IMG/VR virus record: IMGVR_UViG_3300025407_001511
DNA: 15,349 nt
Source: a virus
Direction: 5' to 3' (one strand)
Part shown: one piece after another, positions 7,015 to 15,349 of the stretch
How the letters are laid out: each line of letters starts with the position of its first letter
How positions within the stretch are numbered: the first letter of the stretch is position 1
Made by a program: the position numbers and the translations under genes
The notes under the pieces: model-generated
Database searches by the model: none
Told to the model about the DNA's origin: nothing
Seen by the model: only the letters and a program-made list of their open reading frames with translations

Positions 7015-8295
7015 TTAGAACCTAAAGAACTTTTCGAGAACATCAACGGGGAGACCGATAGATGAAGTTCTTGCAGCAGGTGGGTTCGTTGGGTCTTTTG
7101 CCCAAGCTGCTCTAGAAGCAACATCTGCATTGTTTTTAGCTTTGTTGTAGTTCATGCCAGTTCCAGGAGTCGCTATAGCTTTTCCATGTGCTTCTGCTGC
7201 ATCCATGTGTGCGAAGTAAGCTTCTCTGTGATCAGGGTTGTTACCATGGAAAGTATCAGCACCATGAAACTCTGGAGAACCATCGGAGTTTGTTCTTCCT
7301 GTCCATGGAGTGTTACCCTGCAACTTGTTAGCAGCATTGAGGTGATTATCACGCAAAGTTGCATGATAGTTATTGGTATCATCCTTTTGGGAGTCTTTAC
7401 GATCCATGAACATGTGTGCAGCATCATACATACCGGCTTGCTTGGATGCAGTGGCGTGACCAAAACCATCAGTCAGCTCAAGAGGACCACGATCAGCTTC
7501 GCCAGGTGTCATATCGTGTGAACGAGGAATTAAGTTGCTATTTGGTTTAATGTCATACAAGCTTTGACCTTCGCTCTGCTGAGGGGTCTTGTTGTAGAAC
7601 TTGTATTGTGTGTAACCGTTGTAGTAGTCCTTGCTCAAGAGGGCAAGATCCTCGTCCATTGGCTTACCGGCTTGTGCATCGCCGTAGCCTTGGTAGTAAA
7701 GCTCACTGTCGTTAGCTTCTTTGAACATAGCGTAGAAAGCACCAGCGGCACCCATCTTGGCTTCTTCCTTAACGATGTCACGCCCAGCATCAAGGTCGCC
7801 AGCAGTAGGGCCTTCTACTGTTGTAAGGCTCTCACCCGAGAAGTTATTTTCGCCAATGCCGTGGTCATTAGCAGGCTGGTTGCAACCACAATTTGTGCAT
7901 GCAATGCGTGTTCCTGGGAAGTATGTCTTTTCGCAGTGATTACAGAATGGCTCACCATTCTCCATCACGTATGCAATTCTTGCATTCATGCTCATGTTTG
8001 CTCCAATAATTGTTGATAGCGATCCTGGAGATACGCTAGAAAGCCCTTCATTGCTTACAACTGGTGGTTGCCCCTCGAGATCAATTGTATCCTTAGGCTC
8101 ATCGCCCAAAGCAGTCAATCTCGTAGAGTTTTCGTCTTCGTTACCAATGTCTGCAAATCTAAAGTGGCCAACAGTACCGACTTGGCTTTGTCCTGGAAGG
8201 CCAAACCCTGCATCGTCTTCTTCGGTAGCGTCTTCAATGCCTCGTAGCGAAGCATCGTCTCCGTAATTACCGTTATCCTGCGTAGCGTATCTCAT
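7015..8295 (-). CDS. Hypothetical protein, about 426 aa, with an internal zinc ribbon (CNHCEKTYFPGTRIACTNCGC); rich in Gly/Asn/Asp and possibly structural.
   Basis: Long ORF. The first track codon at 8296-8298 is TTG, and the ATG at 8293-8295 is the likely start. No recognisable enzyme motif. Confidence 0.55.
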   Translation of the reverse strand: MRYATQDNGNYGDDASLRGIEDATEEDDAGFGLPGQSQVGTVGHFRFADIGNEDENSTRLTALGDEPKDTIDLEGQPPVVSNEGLSSVSPGSLSTIIGANMSMNARIAYVMENGEPFCNHCEKTYFPGTRIACTNCGCNQPANDHGIGENNFSGESLTTVEGPTAGDLDAGRDIVKEEAKMGAAGAFYAMFKEANDSELYYQGYGDAQAGKPMDEDLALLSKDYYNGYTQYKFYNKTPQQSEGQSLYDIKPNSNLIPRSHDMTPGEADRGPLELTDGFGHATASKQAGMYDAAHMFMDRKDSQKDDTNNYHATLRDNHLNAANKLQGNTPWTGRTNSDGSPEFHGADTFHGNNPDHREAYFAHMDAAEAHGKAIATPGTGMNYNKAKNNADVASRAAWAKDPTNPPAARTSSIGLPVDVLEKFFRF

Positions 8296-8330
8296 CAATG
8301 ACTAGTGCGCCTTGGGGGCTATTTTAACTC

Positions 8331-9410
8331 TTATTCCCAGCTGGTTGGTTTGTCATTGTTAGTTGAATTGAAACGATCTTCATTCAACAAATCAATTAAT
8401 CTATTGCTGCTACCAGTGATTGGTCGAGCTGGCGTTGGGAAGTTAGATATAGTTTGTGGGAAATTAAGCTCAAGGTTAATTCCTGCTCCAGGACCAGATG
8501 ACCCTTTTTCTGGCGTTTGCTTTGTAGGCATTGGTTCTTGACCAGTTTCAAGCTTAGTTTTCTGTTGTGGTGGGTTACTAGTCTCTTGCTCACTCTTAGT
8601 AGAAGTTTCTTCTTCAAGAGAAGGTTCTGGCATAGCTTCTGTTTTATCACCAATTGTTTTAGGAGCTGGCTGCCAAGTTGTGGGAGATGGTTGTGGTGTG
8701 CTAGGAGGAGTCTTTGATGGCTTACCAGGAACAGTGAAAGGTGGAACTGTGATTGGCTTAGTAGGAGCCAATGGGTGAGTCTCGAGAGGCATGATGCTAC
8801 CAACTACGGGGTTAGCAGGGCTTGCAAAGCTCTGTCCACCACCAGAATCTGGCGTATTGTTGATATCATTGCTATTGTCGCCATTTTCATTACCGCTTGA
8901 GTTGCTACTAGGCAAGTTCTTCAATGCATCGCTAAGGCCACCACCTTCTGCACCTGCAGCGGCCTCTCCAGCGCCAGCGACTGCTTCTCCAGCACCAAGA
9001 AGCTCTGGGATAGCAAGAAGAGGACCAGCAGTCACAATTGTGCTTGCTGTGACCATGCGAAGTTCCTTAGCAGCGAACCCCTTACCAGCTTCTGACTGGT
9101 AAACTTGGTTATCTGTCAATGCATAAGGAATAACGTTAACAGTTGCGTGCGCTTTGCGCAGCATTTCTGTTGCAATGCCTTGGTTTCGGTATTCTGGCTC
9201 GACGTAAACACCATCCATGATGTAGTTGCCACTAGCTTGCTTTTCAGCAGTGAAATAACCGATTCTTTCGTCTCCAACCATTGCTTCAACAAGAAGACCA
9301 GAGAACGTGCCACCAGTCTTGTATTGCATTGGGCCAACGTTAGCAACAATTCGAACCTTGTCACCTTGTTCTTCAAGGATCTCATTAAGTCTTGGTGGGA
9401 TAGTAGCCAT
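8331..9410 (-). CDS. GNAT-family N-acetyltransferase-like N-terminal domain fused to a long Gly/Ala-, Ser/Asn- and Pro/Thr-rich low-complexity C-terminal region.
   Basis: 359 aa. GNAT motif A is VYVEPEYRNQGIATEMLRKA (R-x-x-G-x-A acetyl-CoA pyrophosphate loop). Residues about 130-359 are low-complexity (AGAGEAAAGAEGGG..., PPSTPQPSPTTWQPAPK...). The ATG at 9408-9410 overlaps the upstream stop (TAATG). Confidence 0.5.
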   Translation of the reverse strand: MATIPPRLNEILEEQGDKVRIVANVGPMQYKTGGTFSGLLVEAMVGDERIGYFTAEKQASGNYIMDGVYVEPEYRNQGIATEMLRKAHATVNVIPYALTDNQVYQSEAGKGFAAKELRMVTASTIVTAGPLLAIPELLGAGEAVAGAGEAAAGAEGGGLSDALKNLPSSNSSGNENGDNSNDINNTPDSGGGQSFASPANPVVGSIMPLETHPLAPTKPITVPPFTVPGKPSKTPPSTPQPSPTTWQPAPKTIGDKTEAMPEPSLEEETSTKSEQETSNPPQQKTKLETGQEPMPTKQTPEKGSSGPGAGINLELNFPQTISNFPTPARPITGSSNRLIDLLNEDRFNSTNNDKPTSWE

Positions 9411-10138
9411 TATAGTTTTCCTAGGTCAGTAGTGAGGTCTTCAAGGCGCATATCGCCATATTGACCCTTTTCAACAATCTCTGGAGTGATGAGAGCCCAG
9501 CTCTCTTCCATGTAGCTTTGCAGCCATCTCCACGTTACCTTCTGCACTTTACCCCAGGTAATACATTCAGCGTAGTCCTTGTCGTAACCTACGAGGATGA
9601 CACAGTGGCCACCTTCGATCTGATTGTCAGCAGGAGTGCCTGTAAGGTCCCATGGCTGGTTGTCAAGGAATTGCTGCTGGAAGGTGACTGGGAGCTTTAC
9701 ACCAATGTATACAAGCCCATATGAGGCAATTACGCTACGGAGCTCATCAAGGTCAGCATGGTCAGTAGGGGCGAACGCAGCAAGCTTTGTGTTGAACAAG
9801 CCGTTGGTCTGCCAGTACTTTAGTAGGTCCGCCTCGACCGCTCCAGCATCTTGTCCATTCGTATAATTGAGATAACTTTGCTCGACTTCGGTGTCAGAAG
9901 GGAATCCTTCTGTAAGTTGTAAGAAAGCAGCGTTAGCCATTCTGGCGTGAACAATACCAGCAAAAGTACAATCCCCATATTTATCATTTCCTAACATTCC
10001 CCAATTATCTACGTTTGGCACTGCTACGCTCTCTGGTGCAGCTGGCAACGGGTTGCCCTGATAGAAAGCAAGCATGTGCAACCCAGCAGGGCGCTTAGGA
10101 TCTAGCTTACCTAATTTACCAACAATACGATCAGTCAT
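9410..10138 (-). CDS. Papain-like (clan CA, C1-like) cysteine peptidase.
   Basis: Track ORF 9410..10165 has an in-frame ATG at 10136-10138, 2 nt after the upstream stop (MTDRIVGKL...). The Cys motif is NDKYGDCTFAGIVHA (papain QGSCGSCWAF-like, with an Asn 6 residues before the Cys). The His motif is GGHCVILVGYD (papain HAVAAVGY-like), about 131 residues after the Cys as in papain. A Trp sits 17 residues after the His (ITWG, like papain NSWG). Confidence 0.5.
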   Translation of the reverse strand: MTDRIVGKLGKLDPKRPAGLHMLAFYQGNPLPAAPESVAVPNVDNWGMLGNDKYGDCTFAGIVHARMANAAFLQLTEGFPSDTEVEQSYLNYTNGQDAGAVEADLLKYWQTNGLFNTKLAAFAPTDHADLDELRSVIASYGLVYIGVKLPVTFQQQFLDNQPWDLTGTPADNQIEGGHCVILVGYDKDYAECITWGKVQKVTWRWLQSYMEESWALITPEIVEKGQYGDMRLEDLTTDLGKL

Positions 10139-10140
10139 TA

Positions 10141-10509
10141 TTATCTCCCATAAACATCTTTCCATTGACTAAAAGTCAAACCAGTTTTGCCTGCAAGGAA
10201 CGAGTGAGTGTTGCAATATGGCCTTGGCACTGAAGAATCAGACCAATGCATGTATTTTGCTTCGTACTTCTTACCTTGGCAGTCGCCATGAGCACATGCA
10301 GCCATACCCTTGCGGTCTACGTAAGGTGCTTTCCTAGTTTTCTTAGGAGGCTCTGGCTGTGGGTTCTCTGCTAAGTACTTCTGCGTGTTCTCGCAATCGG
10401 TAGTGTCTTTGCACCTACCGCTGCTAACGATTGTGTGGGTGCCATCATCTGATGCACCACAGAGCTGACATTGGTCAGGACGAGCAGCGTAACGTTCTGA
10501 CCAAGACAT
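10141..10509 (-). CDS. Cys/His-rich small protein, 122 aa; member C of the N-terminal W-S-x-R-Y-A-A paralog set.
   Basis: Starts MSWSERYAARPDQCQLCG... It contains many Cys/His residues consistent with zinc binding (CQLCG, GRCKDTTDC, CAHGDC, CNTH). The ATG at 10507-10509 overlaps the upstream stop (TAATG). Confidence 0.5.
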   Translation of the reverse strand: MSWSERYAARPDQCQLCGASDDGTHTIVSSGRCKDTTDCENTQKYLAENPQPEPPKKTRKAPYVDRKGMAACAHGDCQGKKYEAKYMHWSDSSVPRPYCNTHSFLAGKTGLTFSQWKDVYGR

Positions 10510-10964
10510 TAGAAGTATTTCTGTCGTTCTGACGGAGTCATCTTGCCTGATTTTGCTACAGCAGCATCGTGGCTCAGCGGTGTTGGGTTGGGGTTATGAC
10601 GTCCATTGACTATTGTTTCTCCAACTGATCTAAGCAAGCTATAGTGATTGGGAATAACATTTTTGTTGAGAGCGTCAATCGCTTCATCATGTGTAGCTAG
10701 CAGTCTGGGCTCTAAAGCTTCTGGGCCACCAAGCCATGGATCATTGCGTGCACGTGCACTAACATATAAACTGATATTGTGACCCTGGGTATAGGCATGC
10801 ATCATTTCGTCTTCGGTAATACCGTGTCGCCTAGCATCATCAACATGCTTCTTTTGAATAAGCTTGGGGTTGCCTGAGTTGGCGTGATCAATCAGCTTCT
10901 CAAAGTAGTGTGGATCACCATAACCAAAGGTATCTTCAGCTGCGTATCTTCTTTTCCAATTCAT
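10509..10964 (-). CDS. Hypothetical protein, 151 aa from the ATG at 10962-10964; member B of the N-terminal N-W-K-R-R-Y-A-A-E paralog set.
   Basis: Track ORF 10509..10985 begins at a non-coupled upstream codon. The ATG at 10962-10964 (MNWKRRYAAEDTFGY...) overlaps the stop of gene A as TAATG. The body is unrelated to A and C and is His-rich (RRHGITEDEMMHAYTQGH). Confidence 0.5.
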   Translation of the reverse strand: MNWKRRYAAEDTFGYGDPHYFEKLIDHANSGNPKLIQKKHVDDARRHGITEDEMMHAYTQGHNISLYVSARARNDPWLGGPEALEPRLLATHDEAIDALNKNVIPNHYSLLRSVGETIVNGRHNPNPTPLSHDAAVAKSGKMTPSERQKYF

Positions 10965-11155
10965 TAATCTTCTCCAAGGATCCAATCGGCTACTTCTTTA
11001 CTGCGTGAGTGTTCTTGTCCAATAGATGGCCCTTCTTGTCTACTCAGTTCAGAAATAATGTGTTTTTCTGCTTCAGTAGTGTTAGGGCATTGCAGTTTAG
11101 GCCAGCCATGGCATGAACAGCTTTCTGCTGCGTATCTTTTAGACCAATTACTCAT
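10964..11155 (-). CDS. Small protein, 63 aa; member A of the paralog set (MSNWSKRYAAESCSCHGW...).
   Basis: The ATG at 11153-11155 overlaps the HNH gene stop (ATGA). It shares its first 11 residues with B and C, and about 15 of 17 nt with B at the DNA level (AGATACGCAGC). Confidence 0.5.
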   Translation of the reverse strand: MSNWSKRYAAESCSCHGWPKLQCPNTTEAEKHIISELSRQEGPSIGQEHSRSKEVADWILGED

Positions 11156-11574
11156 TTGATGAGTCCTCTCACGTATTTTGCTGCCTCAAAGTCACTGTAA
11201 GCTGTGACGTGTTTGCCACCATGACCTCTGTGGTGGAAAAGGCATAGCCATTCCAGGTTTGTTGCGCTCTCTACCCATGCACCAACGGTGTCTGGGTCGC
11301 TAACGCCGGGGTAATCGACTTCGAGCCACTTAAGATCGACGCCATTCTGCAATGAGAACTCAATATGAGTGTGGTGAAGCTCCAAAGGGTGCTCAGAGTC
11401 GCACTCACTGAAGTCATTGCGGTGTTCACCGATAGCACATTTAGCTGTTGCCTTCGTTTTCTCACGGAAATGGTGAAAATCGACGTAATGTGGGTCATCT
11501 TCACGCTCTGGGTGAGGTGGATAGTGAACGGTGTAATGATGAGTGATGTTCTGGTCGTGTTCTTCGACGGTCAT
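11152..11574 (-). CDS. HNH-family endonuclease-like protein.
   Basis: 140 aa. Carries LELHHTHIEFSLQNG...NLEWLCLFHHRGHGG, matching the HNH core (HH...N...N-L-x-x-L-C-x-x-H-H), with upstream Cys (KCAIGEH...SECDSEH) for a zinc site. The ATG at 11572-11574 overlaps the upstream stop (TAATG). Confidence 0.5.
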   Translation of the reverse strand: MTVEEHDQNITHHYTVHYPPHPEREDDPHYVDFHHFREKTKATAKCAIGEHRNDFSECDSEHPLELHHTHIEFSLQNGVDLKWLEVDYPGVSDPDTVGAWVESATNLEWLCLFHHRGHGGKHVTAYSDFEAAKYVRGLIK

Positions 11575-11966
11575 TAGTCTTTTTCCCTTCTATCTTGCTG
11601 AAGGTAGTCAATAACTTCGTCTAAACTGCCAAAAACGCGTATATCATCTTCATATTCGTCGTTATCTAGGTCAAAATCGTCTTCATCTGACGAAAAAAGC
11701 TCTTCCATGATCATCTGGAAAGCAGAAAAGGTGATTTCTCTTGAATATTCTACAAAAACACCGTCATGCTGACAGTATTCACTTACGTTAATACGATAAG
11801 TGTGGTCTTCATCGTCATCTTTTGGCTTATCGATGGAGAAATCATCTGAAAGAGAGGAAATCTGGGCAATACTCTCCTTAAACCGGGAGACATATGCACT
11901 TTTCTCTGTAGTATCACTGTACTTTGCTATGTTCTTGCAAGTTTCACAGTCACAGTTGTTTGACAT
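11574..11966 (-). CDS. Acidic hypothetical protein, 130 aa, with Asp/Glu-rich tracts and an N-terminal CDCETC.
   Basis: ATG at 11964-11966 with AAGGAAA 5 nt upstream. It is preceded by a strong promoter-like element. It is the first gene of the coupled operon that runs down to the papain-like peptidase. Confidence 0.5.
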   Translation of the reverse strand: MSNNCDCETCKNIAKYSDTTEKSAYVSRFKESIAQISSLSDDFSIDKPKDDDEDHTYRINVSEYCQHDGVFVEYSREITFSAFQMIMEELFSSDEDDFDLDNDEYEDDIRVFGSLDEVIDYLQQDRREKD

Positions 11967-12023
11967 GTTTTCCTTAGTTATATATATAAGAGGATTTTTT
12001 AAATTTTGTCAATAGATTTTAAG
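11959..12023. promoter_or_regulatory. Face-to-face sigma70-like promoters sharing a TATATATA -10 region. The minus-strand one is TTGACA(12012-12007)-N18-TATATA. The plus-strand one is TTGACA(11960-11965)-N17-TATATA(11983-11988).
   Basis: AT-rich 72-nt intergenic gap. Both -35 hexamers match consensus perfectly. The minus-strand promoter would drive the operon beginning with 11574-11966. The plus-strand promoter would run antisense into gene 12039-13154. Confidence 0.35.
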
Positions 12024-12038
12024 ATAAAACTTTAAAAT

Positions 12039-13154
12039 TTATTCGCCAGAGTAGCTATCATCAGCGTGAACAGCTCTATTTATAGCTGTTGAAGGACTGT
12101 AAAGGTGAGAAACACCCTCTCCACCTCTCGCACGATGACGTACTCTTGGTGCAACTACAGCTGCATGGTTGTCTTCGTCCTGTCTAAAGTTGACATGGTG
12201 GTTGATAATGGTCTGTTCAGCCTTCGTACCATACAAAACACGGTGGTGTGAACGTCTTCCGACCTTACCAAACTCTCCAGCTTCCTTAGAAACGGGGAAA
12301 CCAGCGAAATAAGCGGCTCTAATCTTGGGATCTTGAGTTCTTTTGGCTGCTTCTTCGTGGTGTTGCATGTCCCAAAGCTGGTTTGTGGGGTGAGTACTGT
12401 CATTTACAACGCAGTATGGGCAGAAACACTTAACAAAACGGGCAGTTTTACCCTGATCGATGACATTTTGCTCAACAGGATCGATAGCATCGTGCGTATT
12501 GCACATGTTATTGATGGTGTGGTTGAATGCGTGGTGCACTGCAAGGTCACCATGGGTGTGATCACTGACAGTTTTCATGGCATCTCGGTAGAACTTAGGG
12601 TCCTTGATGCCATTACGCTTACCCTCGTTGAATGCCATGATCGTTTCAATGTGCGATTGGCCCAAAGCTGAGAGTGGGTGGACCATCAAACGCTCACCAG
12701 TCTTTGCATTCACGTGTTCACCGGCACGGAAAGCACGATCATCCAGGTGGCCCTCTTCGCTGGGAGCAATCATCATAGTAGGTTGATGGATACCCTGCTC
12801 GAGCTTGTAAGGCTTACCAGTGGTCTTGTTGCGAACAGCAACGGTCATGTAGTCACTTGCGGTTTTAACGTTGGCAAGCTGCGAGTGAGCGCGACTGTGA
12901 TACCAGTCGCCCTTTTTGCTTTGCTTCAAGCCAAACAAACGCACTGCGTCAGGATTGGGCTCTTCGCCCTCACCAAGGCTACCTATGTAGTGATTAGCGG
13001 CTTTCTCAGCAGCATGAGGCACATGATAGTACTCAGGGTCTTCCTTGTGGGTGGCGTAGCCAGTACCCTCTTGGAAGATAAGCGTCATAGCGTTGGCAGG
13101 TCCGCCAGTCTTGAATTGCTTATCGTGTTTTGCAGCTTCTCTGCTGTTGAACAT
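12039..13154 (-). CDS. Hypothetical His-rich protein, 371 aa.
   Basis: Long ORF. ATG at 13152-13154 with AGGAG 8 nt upstream. Contains many His plus a CFCPYC motif. No confident family assignment from motifs alone. Confidence 0.55.
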   Translation of the reverse strand: MFNSREAAKHDKQFKTGGPANAMTLIFQEGTGYATHKEDPEYYHVPHAAEKAANHYIGSLGEGEEPNPDAVRLFGLKQSKKGDWYHSRAHSQLANVKTASDYMTVAVRNKTTGKPYKLEQGIHQPTMMIAPSEEGHLDDRAFRAGEHVNAKTGERLMVHPLSALGQSHIETIMAFNEGKRNGIKDPKFYRDAMKTVSDHTHGDLAVHHAFNHTINNMCNTHDAIDPVEQNVIDQGKTARFVKCFCPYCVVNDSTHPTNQLWDMQHHEEAAKRTQDPKIRAAYFAGFPVSKEAGEFGKVGRRSHHRVLYGTKAEQTIINHHVNFRQDEDNHAAVVAPRVRHRARGGEGVSHLYSPSTAINRAVHADDSYSGE

Positions 13155-13260
13155 AAGTTGTACTCCTAGTTAAGTTAAAACAGGCACCGCGCGTCACCGG
13201 CCCTAGACCCGATTCCGAATTTTCTTTTACCCTTATGTTATAAGGGGTTTAGACTCTTAG

Positions 13261-13926
13261 TTAGCAACCACCACGGCAAATCCATCCAGTACCGTATTCT
13301 TGACTTGGGTCCCAAACAATGTCTTGGGTGTTTCCACAGTTGTAGCAGTAGCGAGAATTGCCTGGGATGTGCCCATCCATAGGCTTATTTTCCCCCATTG
13401 AGTTATCGTTGGCGTAACGCTCAGCGAAAGAAGCACTCTTAGGCTTAAGTGGTGGCACATCGCGAACGTGCTTGTAGACTTGTGGGTCGTACTTAGTGTC
13501 TGGGTCTTGCATCATTTTCACTCTTGAATTAAGAGGAACGTTAGGATTTGTTACTTCTTTGCTAATGTTTGTCTGAGGAGCCTTGCTCTTTGTGCTTGTC
13601 TGCTCTGTGGGGAAATGCTTTTCCATAAGATCACTATAGTGTTCCACAAGGCTCTTTTGGTTAACGCCTGGTTGTGTGCGCTTCAGTACTTCTTGGTGCA
13701 TCTCATTAATTTTGCCAACGCCTTGCTGGAACTTCCCAATGCTGTCCATAACGTCATTGTGGTTATTACGGACTTCATCAACCATTCTTGCATTAGGGAC
13801 GTTAGGCTTGTTCTTTTCGTATTCATCACGCGTTTGGTATCTATTCTCAGCGATTCTAATCGCCGCCATTTTTGCATTGCCAAGTGAGTTCTGGTAGCTC
13901 TTTGACCAGTCGTTGAATTGTGCCAT
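13261..13926 (-). CDS. Hypothetical protein, 221 aa, with a C-terminal zinc ribbon (CYNCGN...WICRGGC) and an N-terminal NDWSKSY motif related to the A/B/C paralog leader.
   Basis: ATG at 13924-13926 with AAAGGG upstream. It is the first gene of the minus-strand block next to the divergent junction. Confidence 0.5.
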   Translation of the reverse strand: MAQFNDWSKSYQNSLGNAKMAAIRIAENRYQTRDEYEKNKPNVPNARMVDEVRNNHNDVMDSIGKFQQGVGKINEMHQEVLKRTQPGVNQKSLVEHYSDLMEKHFPTEQTSTKSKAPQTNISKEVTNPNVPLNSRVKMMQDPDTKYDPQVYKHVRDVPPLKPKSASFAERYANDNSMGENKPMDGHIPGNSRYCYNCGNTQDIVWDPSQEYGTGWICRGGC

Positions 13927-14479
13927 GGTGTAGCCCTTTGTAGATAGTAGAACGATTGCTATCCCCTATACCAAGAACTATATGTATTTACATTATTCTC
14001 TCTTTTTTTCTATCTACTTTAGTGCACCTAGTATTTCATACGTGGCCAAGGCCTCCGGCATTTTTAATTCTTACCAGTACGATCTCAACGCCTGCTCTAT
14101 CGAATACCCCATAGGGCTGCCCGCCATTTTTTAAAGGCGTTTCTATACGCTCCCATTGGGACCCCTATTGGCGAGCCTTACAGAGCCTTTTAGGCCCCTC
14201 TCAAGGCACTCCTCTAAAACCCTTTAGTTCTGGAAATGGCAAAACCTACCATCCTATTTCACGCCTTGGATTGCGTGTTAGTTACACGCTAGCAAAAGAT
14301 TATGAACTTCTTTGCGTCCTTGGGCACAATGTCCAAGTGAGGCTGAGAACTCATGGTCCTAGCAATCACCTGTATGTTGCTGAACTACAGCACCGTACAG
14401 CTGTGTGCGCAAACGTACTACTCAGTAGTGCGCGAACGTACGCAGCAACCCAACACCTATGCATTAGAAAGAGATTAAA
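13927..14479. other. Divergent non-coding junction of about 550 bp between the minus-strand and plus-strand gene blocks.
   Basis: No credible ORF. Positions 13960-14040 are about 25% GC with T-tracts. Positions 14040-14230 are about 52% GC and carry three imperfect CCC(A)T(A/T)(T/G)GG repeats (14107-14116, 14152-14160, 14163-14172). A 6-bp stem-loop GCGTGT-tagtt-ACACGC lies at 14273-14289. Confidence 0.5.
14404..14440 (+). promoter_or_regulatory. Two 14-bp direct repeats GTGCGC(A/G)AACGTAC (14404-14417 and 14427-14440) flanking the 13-bp palindrome ACTACT-C-AGTAGT; candidate operator or transcription-factor site 40-75 nt upstream of the first plus-strand gene.
   Basis: Read directly: ...gtgcgcaaacgtac tactcagta gtgcgcgaacgtac... 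The repeats match at 13 of 14 positions and each contains a GTAC palindrome. Confidence 0.35.
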
Positions 14480-14665
14480 ATGAAGCGTTTTCAGCTGATT
14501 TCCCTGCTCCTTGGTAGCTTTGCGTTCACGTTCGCAGTATCGTTCGTGAACACAATGATCTCGTGGTACACACCCATGGGGCAGGCACAGACCGTACTCA
14601 CGGTCTCGTTGTCGTTCACCTTCGTGGTGTTCGTGGCTGCAGTCCTGTACACAGCCAAGAAGTAG
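14480..14665 (+). CDS. Small membrane protein, 61 aa, with 2 predicted TM helices.
   Basis: ATG at 14480. Two hydrophobic stretches (LISLLLGSFAFTFAVSFV and VLTVSLSFTFVVFVAAVLY) and a KK C-terminus. Weak GAGA-type Shine-Dalgarno. It is the first gene on the plus strand after the junction. Confidence 0.4.
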   Translation: MKRFQLISLLLGSFAFTFAVSFVNTMISWYTPMGQAQTVLTVSLSFTFVVFVAAVLYTAKK

Positions 14666-14747
14666 TACGCAATGCCGAAATCATCACGTCGGGAGATGTT
14701 GTGGTCGTCGTAGGGTGATGCCTACGGCCTGATGATGGCAGTCAGCT

Positions 14748-14795
14748 AACTAAACCAGTCCTGAGGAGGACACTATGAAGGAAGTAACAACGATC
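14748..14795 (+). repeat. Copy 1 of a perfect 48-bp direct repeat spanning the Shine-Dalgarno, ATG and first 7 codons (AACTAAACCAGTCCTGAGGAGGACACTATGAAGGAAGTAACAACGATC).
   Basis: Identical to 15196-15243, 448 bp away. The flanks differ immediately outside the 48 bp. Confidence 0.85.
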
Positions 14796-15143
14796 GACGC
14801 TGCTAAGGCTTTGGTTGAGCACTACGCTGCTGCGGCTGAGCTCATGACTGCTGAGGCTAAGGCTGAGTACGAGGCTGCTTTGGCTGCGTACGAGGCTGTT
14901 GAGGCTAAGTACGAGGCTAAGCAGGACGCTGCTTGGGCTAAGCGTGACGCTGCTAAGGCTGAGTACTACGCTGCTCAGGCTGAGTTCAAGGCTGCCGAGG
15001 CTGAGTTCGACGATGCTTGGGCTGAGTACCACGCTGCTTTGGCTAAGTACGACGCTGCTTTGTCTAAGCCTGAGGTCAAGGCTGCTTGGGCTAAGTTCTA
15101 CGCTGCTATGGCTGAGCTCAACGCTGCTCAGGCTGAGCAGTAA
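14775..15143 (+). CDS. Acidic Ala/Glu/Lys/Tyr-rich heptad-repeat (coiled-coil) protein, 122 aa.
   Basis: A strong Shine-Dalgarno GAGGAGGA sits 7 nt upstream of the ATG. Aromatics (Y/F/W) recur every 7 residues (positions 32, 39, 46, 64, 71, 78, 85, 92) in an A-E-Y-x-A-A-x heptad. Net charge is about -13. The gene is about 58% GC with extreme GCT/GAG/AAG codon bias. The antisense ORF 14742..15032 is an artefact. Confidence 0.65.
   Translation: MKEVTTIDAAKALVEHYAAAAELMTAEAKAEYEAALAAYEAVEAKYEAKQDAAWAKRDAAKAEYYAAQAEFKAAEAEFDDAWAEYHAALAKYDAALSKPEVKAAWAKFYAAMAELNAAQAEQ
14850..15130 (+). repeat. About nine tandem copies of a 21-bp unit (consensus GCTGCTnnGGCTGAGTACGAG-like), in frame within the Ala-rich gene.
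   Basis: Copies read directly: ggctgagtacgaggctgc, ggctaagtacgaggctaagc, ggctgagtactacgctgc, ggctgagttcaaggctgc, ggctgagttcgacgatgc, ggctgagtaccacgctgc, ggctaagtacgacgctgc, ggctaagttctacgctgc, ggctgagctcaacgctgc. Confidence 0.7.
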
Positions 15144-15195
15144 CAGCTCGGTTCACAAGGGGTATGAGCTCCACCCCACCCAACGGGCTCAACCC

Positions 15196-15243
15196 AACTA
15201 AACCAGTCCTGAGGAGGACACTATGAAGGAAGTAACAACGATC
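15196..15243 (+). repeat. Copy 2 of the 48-bp translation-initiation cassette.
   Basis: Same 48 nt as 14748-14795, here heading the next gene. Confidence 0.85.
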
Positions 15244-15349
15244 AGCGGTTCCGTCTACCTCATCAATGAAGATGAGCAGATGTGGTGCCGGAAGTCAACT
15301 GCCCCTGTGCGCAAGTACGATAACGGGGAGTACGTCGACACCGCTCTGG
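15223..15349 (+). CDS. Hypothetical protein, 5' part only (MKEVTTISGSVYLINEDEQMWCRKSTAPVRKYDNGEYVDTAL...); continues beyond the window.
   Basis: The ATG at 15223 is preceded by the same GAGGAGGA ribosome-binding site. Its first 7 residues (MKEVTTI) are identical to the previous gene because of the 48-bp repeat. The open frame runs to the window edge. Confidence 0.55.
   Translation, partial: MKEVTTISGSVYLINEDEQMWCRKSTAPVRKYDNGEYVDTAL

What the first reader, a model, noticed from the sequence alone, without database searches (positions are those of the whole stretch)
14748..15243. Perfect 48-bp duplicated translation-initiation cassette (Shine-Dalgarno, ATG and 7 codons) heads two consecutive, otherwise unrelated plus-strand genes
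AACTAAACCAGTCCTGAGGAGGACACTATGAAGGAAGTAACAACGATC occurs at 14748-14795 and again at 15196-15243. Identity ends sharply on both sides. Both encoded proteins therefore start MKEVTTI and then diverge (an Ala-rich coiled coil versus SGSVYLINEDEQMWCRK...). This may be a recombination module for swapping gene bodies behind a fixed high-efficiency initiation region. It may also be a second conserved N-terminal tag, in parallel with the NWSKRYAAE leader on the other strand. A third reading is a recent partial duplication. Conservation of the non-coding Shine-Dalgarno part argues for a functional or recombinational role rather than protein constraint alone.
Basis: seen in the sequence. Interest (0 to 1): 0.7.

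Follow-up and report, generated by a model that had tools for sequence, protein, structure and literature searches.

The report
Shared gene-start cassette marks recombination joints
Two neighbouring, unrelated phage genes begin with the same 48 bases (ribosome-binding site plus first seven codons) because this "head" is the standard front end of a fast-shuffling family of alanine-rich genes, and related phages have swapped and reordered genes by recombining exactly at it.

Summary
The 48-bp exact repeat is real (14748-14795, 15196-15243; never seen in shuffles). It covers -27 to +21 of two start codons. The bodies that follow are unrelated: a 122-aa Ala-rich heptad-repeat protein, and an 86-aa protein "S" that runs off the window.

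Metagenomic relatives explain it. The head is the usual 5' end of at least 9 distinct Ala-rich paralogs in about 6 phage lineages. S is the only other gene found carrying it. One related lineage has three consecutive head-bearing genes, in a different order (S, Ala98, Ala71). Heads group by genome, not by gene. The S body is 98.8% identical between two lineages, but its 27-nt upstream part differs at 7 positions and matches the local Ala-rich heads. A genome identical to the window over 1,143 nt diverges exactly at the left edge of copy 2.

So the head is a fixed translation-initiation module that serves as a short-homology crossover site for cassette exchange. This resembles the PeSL cassettes of T4-type phages, but the head has no promoter and extends into coding sequence.

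By-product: copy 1 directly abuts a type II hammerhead ribozyme candidate (14673-14747), one of several that punctuate this operon.

Verdict: new variant of a known kind, moderately interesting.

The parts
14673..14747 (+). Type II hammerhead ribozyme candidate ('E1'), directly abutting head copy 1. Core: CGAAA 14676-14680 and CUGAUGA 14729-14735. Stem III hairpin 14680-14705. Predicted cleavage after C14706. Stem I 14707-14714/14721-14728 with loop GUGAUG. Possible loop-I/3'-tail pseudoknot UGAU 14716-14719 with GUCA 14741-14744.
   Evidence: Rfam RF02276, 31.5 bits, E=4e-4, full-length model match; this is below the gathering score of 37. Sister copies score 38.3, 37.5, 36.7 and 27.9 bits. 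All 9 sequence variants fold to the same architecture, with compensatory changes in stems I and III.
14748..14795 (+). Head copy 1: 27-nt 5'UTR part plus ATG and 6 more codons (MKEVTTI). Contains the hairpin GUCCU-GAGG-AGGAC (14758-14771), which holds the Shine-Dalgarno GGAGG.
   Evidence: Exact repeat. Hairpin, and an unpaired region from the AUG to +21, in the predicted fold. The head uses rare A-ending codons GAA, GTA and ACA.
14775..15143 (+). Ala-rich heptad-repeat gene (122 aa), one member of a multi-copy, length-variable paralog family (30-182 aa) that normally carries the head.
   Evidence: No Pfam, PHROG or PDB match.
15159..15191 (+). 'SP' element core GGGGTATGAGCTCCACCCCACCCAACGGGCTCA. 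It follows the stop codon of the Ala-rich gene and sits immediately left of head copy 2. It could form a hairpin or an H-type pseudoknot. Function unknown.
   Evidence: The core is invariant apart from one C/T position in 6 different contexts. The fold of 15130-15200 has z=-2.6. No Rfam match at E<=1.
15194..15195 (.). Population-level mosaic breakpoint at the left edge of head copy 2.
   Evidence: The window and L002 are identical over 1,143 nt (14001-15143). They differ at one base in SP and then lose all similarity from about 15195 on. L002 continues into a different 47-aa Lys-rich gene with its own RBS.
15196..15243 (+). Head copy 2 (SD hairpin 15206-15219; ATG 15223).
   Evidence: Exact repeat. 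The same SP-head junction precedes an Ala-rich gene in L019/L021 (context h8).
15223..15349 (+). 5' part of gene S (86 aa in full; complete in L001 7058-7318). Its body is unrelated to the Ala-rich family.
   Evidence: There are only two protein clusters in 5.8 billion sequences, both starting MKEVTTISGS.

Best explanation
The 48-bp element is a complete translation-initiation region: a small hairpin carrying the Shine-Dalgarno GGAGG, a 5-nt spacer, the AUG and six A-rich codons. It spans about -27 to +21, roughly the stretch of mRNA a ribosome covers at initiation. It is the standard front end of a family of Ala-rich, 21-nt-periodic genes that are present in 1-3 copies per genome, in a variable block of small genes in a group of uncultured phages known here only from metagenome assemblies. 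The unrelated gene S carries the same front end, so one of the two gene types is a chimera; which one donated the head is unresolved.

Because several copies of the head lie close together in one genome, and in co-infecting relatives, ordinary homologous recombination crosses over inside it. The same happens in the other conserved intergenic modules: the hammerhead core, the SP element and tRNA-like elements. These crossovers move, delete, replace and reorder whole genes as cassettes without damaging their expression signals. They also make the heads within one genome alike. The perfect 48/48 identity in this window is the scar of such a recent crossover, which joined an 'SP + head' junction of the Ala-rich array to the body of S.

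What is shown: the repeat; its distribution among genes and lineages; the permuted gene order; the breakpoints at both edges; and the discontinuity in divergence at the start codon. What is inferred: that recombination is homology-driven and passive rather than enzyme-targeted; that the head is kept because it gives reliable, strong initiation on an mRNA whose 5' end is defined by ribozyme cleavage; and that the ribozyme is active.
For: 1. The head precedes 9 distinct Ala-rich paralogs plus S in two lineages, giving 11 distinct contexts.
2. Lineage B (L007-L015, L022, L024) has the order tRNA-like element-head-S-hammerhead-head-Ala98-SP-head-Ala71. The window has hammerhead-head-Ala122-SP-head-S-hammerhead.
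3. Heads cluster by genome. The window's S head has 0 differences from Ala-rich heads of lineages A and D, but 7 differences from the S head of lineage B. The S bodies differ at only 3 of 240 nt and the 21 coding head bases at none. The Poisson probability of at least 7 differences in 27 nt at the body's rate is 7e-8.
4. The near-identical S segment (96.7% over 305 nt, against 77% for the neighbouring hammerhead-head-Ala segment) starts in the head and ends 14 nt after the stop codon, inside the conserved hammerhead 5' core ...ACGCCGAA.
5. The window and L002 are identical for 1,143 nt and switch partners at the left edge of copy 2.
6. Ala-rich genes themselves recombine. There are 30- versus 100-aa and 121- versus 182-aa variants, and the L019 gene is a fusion of two paralogs joined at ...AKYD.
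7. Codons 3-5 of the head (GAA, GTA, ACA) are the rare synonymous choices. In Ala-rich bodies the counts are GAG 119 to GAA 8, GTA 0 of 17 Val codons and ACA 0 of 16 Thr codons. The AUG to +21 is unpaired in predicted folds.
8. There is precedent for this mechanism. PeSL cassettes in T4-type phages end with the SD and start codon, and crossovers were mapped between the -10 box, the SD and the ATG (PMC2839356, PMC4122927).
Against: No recombination intermediate or event was observed directly; everything rests on comparing assembled metagenomic contigs. The simple predicted deletion product (hammerhead-head-S, with the Ala-rich gene looped out) was not among the contigs seen. Within contig L023 the two heads are not identical (7 differences), so homogenisation is not universal. 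Only one non-family gene (S) carries the head, so 'general socket for any gene' is not shown. A functional reason for conserving MKEVTT as a peptide cannot be excluded. The collections that could be scanned by DNA were limited: the head is absent from IMG/VR and from GTDB genomes, and there were 9 JGI stretches.
Confidence: 0.7

Rival explanations
1. Pure functional constraint. The two copies are identical only because every base of the initiation region is under strong purifying selection for translation efficiency, with no exchange between copies.
For: There is rare-codon, A-rich bias in codons 3-5 and an unpaired start region. The coding 17 nt ATGAAGGAAG[T/C]AACAAC is nearly invariant even behind different UTRs (contexts h7 and h9).
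Against: The non-coding 27 nt differs between lineages by indels and substitutions, yet the same lineage-specific variant appears on both S and Ala-rich genes of one genome. That would need several parallel changes. Flanking modules and gene order differ, with breakpoints at the head edges.
Confidence: 0.08
2. N-terminal peptide tag. MKEVTT(I) is a functional signal shared by the proteins, for example for localisation, assembly, partner binding or regulated stability, and the DNA identity is secondary.
For: The peptide is kept on all Ala-rich paralogs and on all three S variants, even where the UTR is different. Three consecutive minus-strand genes in the same window share another N-terminal motif, M(S)NWSKRYAAE, so shared N-termini recur in this phage.
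Against: There is no signal-peptide-like character. Synonymous sites in the head are as conserved as non-synonymous ones and use atypical codons, which points to the nucleotide level. It does not explain identity of the 27 non-coding bases or the breakpoints. It is not mutually exclusive with the best explanation.
Confidence: 0.1
3. Shared translational operator. The head is the binding site for a phage- or host-encoded trans-acting regulator (a repressor protein, an endoribonuclease or a small RNA) that switches S and the Ala-rich genes on or off together, as T4 RegA and RegB act on the initiation regions of many early mRNAs.
For: The element spans exactly an initiation region and contains GGAG inside a conserved 5-bp hairpin. 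That hairpin recurs, with two compensatory pairs, at another gene start (L001 9001-9014). RegB cuts GGAG in early-gene initiation regions, and RegA competes with ribosomes on about 30 mRNAs (PMC3014915, PMC1702504).
Against: No regulator was identified; nearly all neighbouring proteins lack any family match. The hairpin may simply follow from an SD next to a CCU-rich spacer. It does not by itself explain the mosaic junctions.
Confidence: 0.08
4. Insertion of a mobile Ala-rich gene with a 48-bp target-site duplication, or a simple local tandem duplication of 448 bp followed by divergence of the bodies.
For: Two direct repeats flank one gene, spaced 448 bp apart.
Against: The bodies show no residual similarity. 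48 bp is far longer than transposon target duplications, and no transposase or terminal repeats are present. Relatives do not show the empty site hammerhead-head-S; instead they carry heads on three genes in another order.
Confidence: 0.02
5. Metagenome assembly artefact: a chimeric join at a repeat.
For: The window appears to come from a metagenome assembly, and repeats can cause mis-joins.
Against: The same arrangement was assembled independently in 6 other contigs from 6 samples and two data sources. The alternative arrangement appears in more than 10 contigs.
Confidence: 0.01

Closest known systems
PeSL (promoter-early stem-loop) mobile regulatory cassettes of T4-type phages (Arbiol et al. 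2010, PMC2839356; Comeau et al. 2014, PMC4122927)
   Same: Both are short conserved composite expression cassettes repeated in front of small, non-essential ORFan genes in hypervariable regions. Both end with the Shine-Dalgarno and start codon. Insertions, deletions and replacements between close relatives have their crossovers inside the cassette, mapped between the -10 box, the SD and the ATG in PeSLs. Patches of homology under 50 bp are sufficient.
   Different: Here there is no sigma-70-type promoter and no terminator with a U-tract. The upstream partner is a self-cleaving ribozyme candidate, a tRNA-like element or the SP element. The conserved block extends 21 nt into the coding sequence, so recombinants are protein chimeras. 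It is tied mainly to one paralog family. Mini-circles were not tested.
Clustered hammerhead ribozymes flanking single genes in prophage and phage operons (Perreault et al. 2011, PMC3088659)
   Same: Several type II hammerheads lie within a few kb, between short genes of a polycistronic unit. There is a possible pseudoknot between loop I and the 3' tail. A ribozyme lies a few tens of nt upstream of a start codon (13 nt in haloviruses HF1 and HF2). The proposed role is processing into single-gene mRNAs.
   Different: That work did not describe a fixed initiation region duplicated behind the ribozymes, nor ribozyme cores acting as recombination joints. Here hammerheads alternate with tRNA-like and SP elements. 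Activity was not tested here.
RiboJ-type synthetic ribozyme insulators (PMC6206723)
   Same: A hammerhead-class ribozyme placed just upstream of the RBS cleaves off the variable upstream RNA. Every transcript then starts with the same hairpin-capped leader and the same RBS context. The window's layout has the same logic: ribozyme, 41-nt leader with a 5' hairpin, then a fixed initiation region.
   Different: RiboJ is engineered (type III sTRSV ribozyme plus a 23-nt hairpin). The natural element is type II, and its insulating function is only inferred.
Mosaic boundaries at gene junctions in tailed-phage genomes (general knowledge, not checked in a paper here)
   Same: Sharp transitions in similarity coincide with gene borders, and cassettes are exchanged between lineages.
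   Different: Most such junctions are thought to arise from illegitimate recombination followed by selection. Here a defined shared sequence sits at the junctions.
T4 RegA/RegB control of early-gene initiation regions (PMC3014915, PMC1702504)
   Same: Many early mRNAs share features of the initiation region, including GGAG, that are read by one regulator.
   Different: RegA and RegB targets are loosely similar, not 48-nt identical. No homolog of either regulator was found here.

Membership tests
PeSL-type recombinogenic regulatory cassette | Conserved composite element repeated before several small genes of a hypervariable region | tested here: met
   There are 2 copies in the window lineage and 3 in lineage B, and 11 distinct contexts overall.
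PeSL-type recombinogenic regulatory cassette | Contains a strong sigma-70-like early promoter | tested here: not met
   There is no promoter-like site in or next to either head. The scan gave 3 sites in 3.8 kb against 2.7 expected, none at the heads.
PeSL-type recombinogenic regulatory cassette | Contains an upstream stem-loop that terminates transcription | tested here: not met
   The upstream partners are a hammerhead candidate or the SP element. Neither has a U-tract, and no terminator-like hit lies on the + strand at these sites.
PeSL-type recombinogenic regulatory cassette | 3' end formed by the Shine-Dalgarno and start codon of the downstream gene | tested here: met
   GGAGG, a 5-nt spacer and ATG are present. 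The conserved block additionally runs 21 nt into the ORF.
PeSL-type recombinogenic regulatory cassette | Differences between close relatives (insertion, deletion, replacement) have breakpoints inside the element | tested here: met
PeSL-type recombinogenic regulatory cassette | Excised mini-circles formed by recombination between neighbouring elements | not testable with these tools
   This needs inverse PCR or long reads on infected cells or virions.
Type II hammerhead ribozyme (Rfam RF02276), for 14673-14747 | Catalytic core: CUGANGA, GAAA, and a cleavage-site triplet NUH | tested here: met
   CGAAA, GUC followed by the cleavage site, and CUGAUGA all align to the model. The unpaired residue at the cleavage site is C or A in all 9 variants.
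Type II hammerhead ribozyme (Rfam RF02276), for 14673-14747 | Stems I and III closed by loops, stem II open; helices supported by covariation | tested here: met
   All 9 variants fold identically. Stem I positions 3, 4, 6 and 8, and the whole of stem III, change in a compensatory way.
Type II hammerhead ribozyme (Rfam RF02276), for 14673-14747 | Score at or above Rfam's gathering threshold (37 bits) | tested here: not met
   The window copy scores 31.5 bits, probably because of its long stem III. Sister copies in L018 score 38.3 and 37.5 bits and pass.
Type II hammerhead ribozyme (Rfam RF02276), for 14673-14747 | Pseudoknot of at least 4 bp between loop I and the 3' tail | tested here: inconclusive
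   UGAU (14716-14719) can pair with GUCA (14741-14744), including one G-U pair. Both strands are invariant across the copies, so there is no covariation to judge by (criterion from PMC3088659).
Type II hammerhead ribozyme (Rfam RF02276), for 14673-14747 | Self-cleavage | not testable with these tools
   This needs in vitro transcription or 5'-end mapping.
Full-length paralogs (ordinary gene duplication) | Detectable similarity along the whole proteins | tested here: not met
   BLASTP aligns only MKEVTTI.
Transposon insertion with target-site duplication | Short direct repeats flanking an element with its own ends or transposase, and an empty site in relatives | tested here: not met
   48 bp is too long for a target-site duplication, there is no transposase, and relatives show other arrangements rather than an empty site.

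The most novel reading that the evidence does not exclude
These phages may run a natural 'plug-and-play' expression system. Each small gene of the operon would be released as its own mRNA by a processing element (hammerhead ribozyme, tRNA-like element, possibly SP). It would then be translated from a standardised initiation region that covers the whole ribosome footprint. This socket would not only shuffle existing genes but also give birth to new ones. The weak similarity of S residues 4-63 to the start of the Fib_succ_major domain (VTDIDGNVY...), if real, would mean that VTTI is native to S. In that case the entire Ala-rich family would have arisen de novo, by duplication of S's initiation region followed by expansion of a 21-nt repeat behind it.
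Probability: 0.15. Interest if true: 0.75.

Novelty: new variant of a known kind. Interest (0 to 1): 0.5.

Why it matters
It gives a clean, sequence-level example of how phages exchange and reorder small accessory genes without breaking their expression: crossovers are channelled into short conserved expression modules. Compared with the T4 PeSL paradigm, two things are new. The shared module reaches into the coding sequence, so recombinants are N-terminal protein chimeras. The module is also combined with self-cleaving ribozyme candidates rather than promoter-terminator pairs, which points to RNA-level rather than transcription-level insulation of cassettes. If the ribozymes and the head work as inferred, this is a natural counterpart of the ribozyme-insulator plus standard-RBS designs of synthetic biology, and a possible source of compact, context-independent expression parts. 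It also flags a hypervariable Ala-rich heptad-repeat protein family and an 86-aa ORFan as likely host-interaction genes worth testing.

Tried and rejected
- Close relatives in INPHARED phage genomes: none by megablast. Only distant protein-level matches to a metallophosphoesterase.
- Head pattern in IMG/VR viral contigs, two scans: none. Head pattern in GTDB species genomes: none.
- Protein search with the Ala-rich ORF: nothing passed, because of its composition. PDB sequence search: nothing. PHROGs and Pfam for the Ala-rich protein, S and their neighbours: nothing except an HNH endonuclease further downstream.
- Exhaustive HMMER search with S gave only its own family plus weak multi-repeat hits (Fib_succ_major and Ig-like giants). 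S does not hit PF09603 or NCBIfam even at E<=10, so this was judged insufficient to fix the direction of head transfer.
- The AlphaFold2 single-sequence model of S had pLDDT 58.8. It was too poor for a fold search, which was not run.
- The third S lineage (P0002, 85% identity) has no DNA on file, so its arrangement could not be read.
- Folding of the head regions gave z-scores near 0, so there is no unusual structure beyond the 5-bp SD hairpin.
- The SP element has no Rfam family at E<=1 and no informative covariation.
- The MAFFT alignment of hammerhead variants splits stem III differently in the long and short forms, so pair counting was done by per-sequence folding instead.
- Rejected as explanations: target-site duplication, full-length paralogy, assembly artefact, and selection without recombination (see the rival explanations).
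Full report
**Observation.** The 48-mer AACTAAACCAGTCCTGAGGAGGACACTATGAAGGAAGTAACAACGATC is present exactly twice, at 14748-14795 and 15196-15243 on the + strand. No other copy appears even with 3 mismatches allowed, and none appears in 200 shuffles (family D5). It runs from -27 to +21 of two ATGs (14775, 15223), and GGAGG ends 5 nt before each ATG. The first ORF (14775-15143) encodes a 122-aa protein that is 37% Ala with a 21-nt (heptad) periodicity. The second begins MKEVTTISGSVYLINEDEQMWCRK and runs off the window. BLASTP aligns only the shared MKEVTTI.

**Extending the window.** An exact-protein look-up of the Ala-rich ORF returned contig L001. It matches window 8166-15349 with 0 mismatches in 7,184 nt and continues 3.1 kb further. 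The second gene ("S") is 86 aa (L001 7058-7318). No third copy of the head exists downstream in this genome. The same arrangement was assembled in six contigs from six samples, which excludes an assembly artefact. The window is phage-like: it has a metallophosphoesterase (phrog_221), phrog_19005, and an HNH endonuclease downstream. It has no close relative in INPHARED, IMG/VR or GTDB genomes.

**What relatives show.** S has only two protein clusters in 5.8 billion sequences, and both start MKEVTTISGS. Contigs carrying the 97%-identical S (lineage B: L007-L015, later L022 and L024) have a different layout. It reads: tRNA-like element, head, S, element E, head, Ala-rich gene of 98 aa, element SP, head, Ala-rich gene of 71 aa. 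So three consecutive genes carry the head there, and S lies upstream of the Ala-rich genes instead of downstream.

A pattern scan of JGI metagenomes added further lineages (L017-L025). In all, 11 distinct head contexts were found. Nine precede Ala-rich paralogs of 30-182 aa, and two precede S. The coding part ATGAAGGAAG[T/C]AACAAC persists even where the 5'UTR is replaced by other sequences (contexts h7 and h9). The head is therefore the normal front end of the Ala-rich family, and S is the one unrelated gene that shares it.

**Evidence for recombination at the head.**
1. Heads group by genome, not by gene. Over -27..+21, the window's S head has 0 differences from Ala-rich heads of lineages A and D, but 7 from the S head of lineage B. 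The lineage-B S head is closest to lineage-B Ala-rich heads.
2. The S bodies of lineages A and B differ at 3 of 240 nt, and the 21 coding head bases at none. At that rate, 0.34 differences are expected in the 27 upstream bases, against 7 observed (Poisson P=7e-8). Divergence therefore jumps at the start codon.
3. The near-identical S segment ends 14 nt after the stop codon, inside the conserved start of element E (...ACGCCGAA), after which the two lineages differ. The neighbouring E-head-Ala segment is only 77% identical. S thus looks like a recently exchanged cassette bounded by two short conserved sequences.
4. L002 is identical to the window over 1,143 nt through the Ala-rich gene, differs at one base in SP, and loses all similarity from about 15195, the base before copy 2. 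It continues into a 47-aa Lys-rich gene with its own RBS.
5. The exact SP-head junction that precedes S in the window precedes an Ala-rich gene in L019 and L021 (context h8).
6. The Ala-rich genes themselves recombine. There are 30- versus 100-aa and 121- versus 182-aa alleles, and the L019 gene is a fusion of two paralogs.

They also show that the perfect identity is a lineage-specific, recent state. Heads in lineage B differ by an indel, and the two in L023 differ at 7 positions.

**What flanks the head.** Element E is a type II hammerhead ribozyme candidate.
- Two copies in L018 pass Rfam's gathering score (38.3 and 37.5 bits).
- The window copy at 14673-14747 scores 31.5 bits (E=4e-4) over the full model, with CGAAA, GUC and CUGAUGA in place.
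- Two more copies lie downstream in L001 (36.7 and 27.9 bits).
- Nine sequence variants all fold into the same pattern: stem III hairpin, one unpaired C or A, an 8-bp stem I with loop GUGAUG, then CUGAYGA. Stems I and III carry multiple compensatory changes.

The predicted cleavage is after C14706. The model's 3' end (14747) is the base before head copy 1. A possible loop-I/3'-tail pseudoknot (UGAU with GUCA at 14741-14744) fits the feature described for type II hammerheads (PMC3088659), but it is invariant here and so untested by covariation. Clusters of hammerheads flanking single genes in prophages, interpreted as processing of polycistronic RNA, are known (PMC3088659).

Copy 2 is preceded instead by SP, whose core is GGGGTATGAG[C/T]TCCACCCCACCCAACGGGCTCA (15159-15191). 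This core is invariant in six contexts. It can form a hairpin or an H-type pseudoknot, and it has no Rfam match. In lineage B, S is preceded by a tRNA-like element. The "sharp edges" of the 48-mer are therefore junctions between conserved modules on the left and gene bodies on the right.

**Is the head also a functional unit?** It spans about the stretch an initiating ribosome covers (textbook knowledge; not checked in a paper here). Three lines of evidence bear on function.
- Codons 3-5 (GAA, GTA, ACA) are the rare synonymous choices in these genes. In Ala-rich bodies the counts are GAG 119 to GAA 8, GTA 0 of 17 and ACA 0 of 16. S bodies and 13 other genes show the same direction of bias.
- Predicted folds leave the AUG to +21 unpaired, and place GGAGG in the loop and 3' arm of a 5-bp hairpin, GUCCU-GAGG-AGGAC.
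- The same hairpin, with two compensatory pairs (UCCCU-GAGG-AGGGA), precedes another gene (L001 9001-9014).

These features fit selection at the mRNA level for a reliable initiation region. They do not prove it, and folding energies are not unusual (z near 0). A peptide-level role for MKEVTT, or a shared operator for a RegA/RegB-like regulator (PMC3014915, PMC1702504), remains possible and would be compatible with the recombination picture.

**Direction of transfer.** Parsimony over contexts suggests that S borrowed the Ala-rich family's head. However, all Ala-rich genes are paralogs, so a single event in either direction would suffice. An exhaustive HMMER search with S found only its own family plus weak, repeat-summed hits. 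One is to the start of the Fib_succ_major domain (VTDIDGNVY...QWM...YNNGD), aligned from S residue 4. If that similarity is real, VTTI would be native to S. But S does not hit PF09603 or NCBIfam at E<=10, the other weak hits are unrelated Ig-like repeats, and the AlphaFold model is poor (pLDDT 58.8). I leave this unresolved.

**Comparison with known systems.** The mechanism works like the PeSL cassettes of T4-type phages. Those are conserved composite expression elements that end in the SD and ATG, are repeated in hypervariable regions, and carry mapped crossovers between the -10 box, the SD and the ATG. In that system, patches of homology under 50 bp suffice (PMC2839356, PMC4122927). The head is not a PeSL by definition. 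No sigma-70-like promoter and no U-tract terminator is present. The conserved block runs into the ORF. The partner elements are a ribozyme candidate, SP, or a tRNA-like element. The layout of ribozyme, hairpin-capped leader and fixed RBS also parallels the engineered RiboJ insulator (PMC6206723). That is an analogy of design, not homology.

**Verdict.** This is a real feature, explained with fair confidence (0.7) as the conserved initiation module of a recombining paralog family that doubles as a crossover site for cassette exchange. It is a new variant of a known kind of phage mosaicism and is moderately interesting. The ribozyme-punctuated context adds value. The more novel reading is a natural standardised expression socket that also seeds new genes. 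It is not excluded, but I give it only about 0.15.

Noticed in passing
window 14673-14747; L001 7323-7385 and 9190-9252; L018 1691-1753(-) and 2093-2167(-); L007 10265-10341 and 11183-11247: Several type II hammerhead ribozyme candidates lie between short genes of the rightward operon, 2-3 per genome. Nine sequence variants share one fold, with compensatory changes. Predicted cleavage in the window is after C14706.
   Followed up: yes
L001 7322-7386 and 9189-9253 (downstream of the window end): Two hammerhead copies have GAAU instead of GAAA, with a matching A at the partner position. The normally conserved A15.1-U16.1 pair is therefore flipped to U-A. This is either a tolerated natural core variant or inactivated copies.
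   Followed up: partly
window 15159-15191; L007 10696 and 10984; L017 1501; L019 224; L021 880 and 1325: 'SP' is a 33-nt core, GGGGTATGAG[C/T]TCCACCCCACCCAACGGGCTCA, that is invariant in six different contexts. It is usually right after the stop codon of an Ala-rich gene. It can form an H-type pseudoknot (GGGG/CCCC plus GAGCUC/GGGCUC). It has no Rfam family, and its function is unknown (processing site, terminator or protective 3' structure are possibilities).
   Followed up: partly
L008 6990-7060 and 8686-8775; L021 468-545; L018 1458-1528(-): tRNA-like elements lie between genes. One is a 13-bp acceptor/T-arm minihelix with a UUCGAUU loop followed by GCCA (fold z=-5.3). One is called tRNA-His by ARAGORN but not by Rfam. 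These may be additional RNA-processing punctuation marks, and one directly precedes the head of S in lineage B.
   Followed up: partly
window 10141-11155, minus strand: Three consecutive minus-strand genes begin with related N-termini: MSWSERYAAR at 10509, MNWKRRYAAE at about 10961, and MSNWSKRYAAE at 11155. The DNA is only about 81% alike (family D14). This is a second, older case of shared gene heads in the same phage.
   Followed up: partly
L001 7397-7418 / L008 8785-8806 versus L017 743 / L018 / L025: A second shared head exists. The UTR aaggaaaaagataacaATGAAG precedes both the 98/99-aa MKYVYMATW gene and an Ala-rich gene (MKEATTIEAAL...), so 5'UTR modules are also exchanged independently of the coding head.
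   Followed up: partly
L017 323 versus L018 (30 versus 100 aa); L021 927 versus L019 271 (121 versus 182 aa): Ala-rich genes change length by in-frame repeat recombination. The 182-aa L019 gene is a fusion of the window-type gene and the MKEATT-type paralog, joined at ...AKYD.
   Followed up: partly
L001 7724-7794 (L008 9115-9185, L007 12023-12093): A tRNA gene is supported by Rfam (57 bits), but ARAGORN cannot assign its anticodon loop ('tRNA-???', anticodon 'ta').
   Followed up: no
window 14211-14266 (L001 6046-6101 = L008 6684-6739, 89% identical): An isolated conserved 56-nt block lies in the otherwise divergent AT-rich region between the leftward and rightward gene blocks. It is a candidate promoter, operator or origin element.
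   Followed up: no
L001 9001-9014: The RBS of a 54-aa gene forms UCCCU-GAGG-AGGGA. This is the same SD hairpin as in the head (GUCCU-GAGG-AGGAC) with two compensatory base-pair changes.
   Followed up: partly
window 14878-14960: A weak Rfam hit to a plant microRNA family (MIR8139, 21 bits against a gathering score of 90) falls inside the Ala-rich repeat. It is a repeat-driven false positive.
   Followed up: yes
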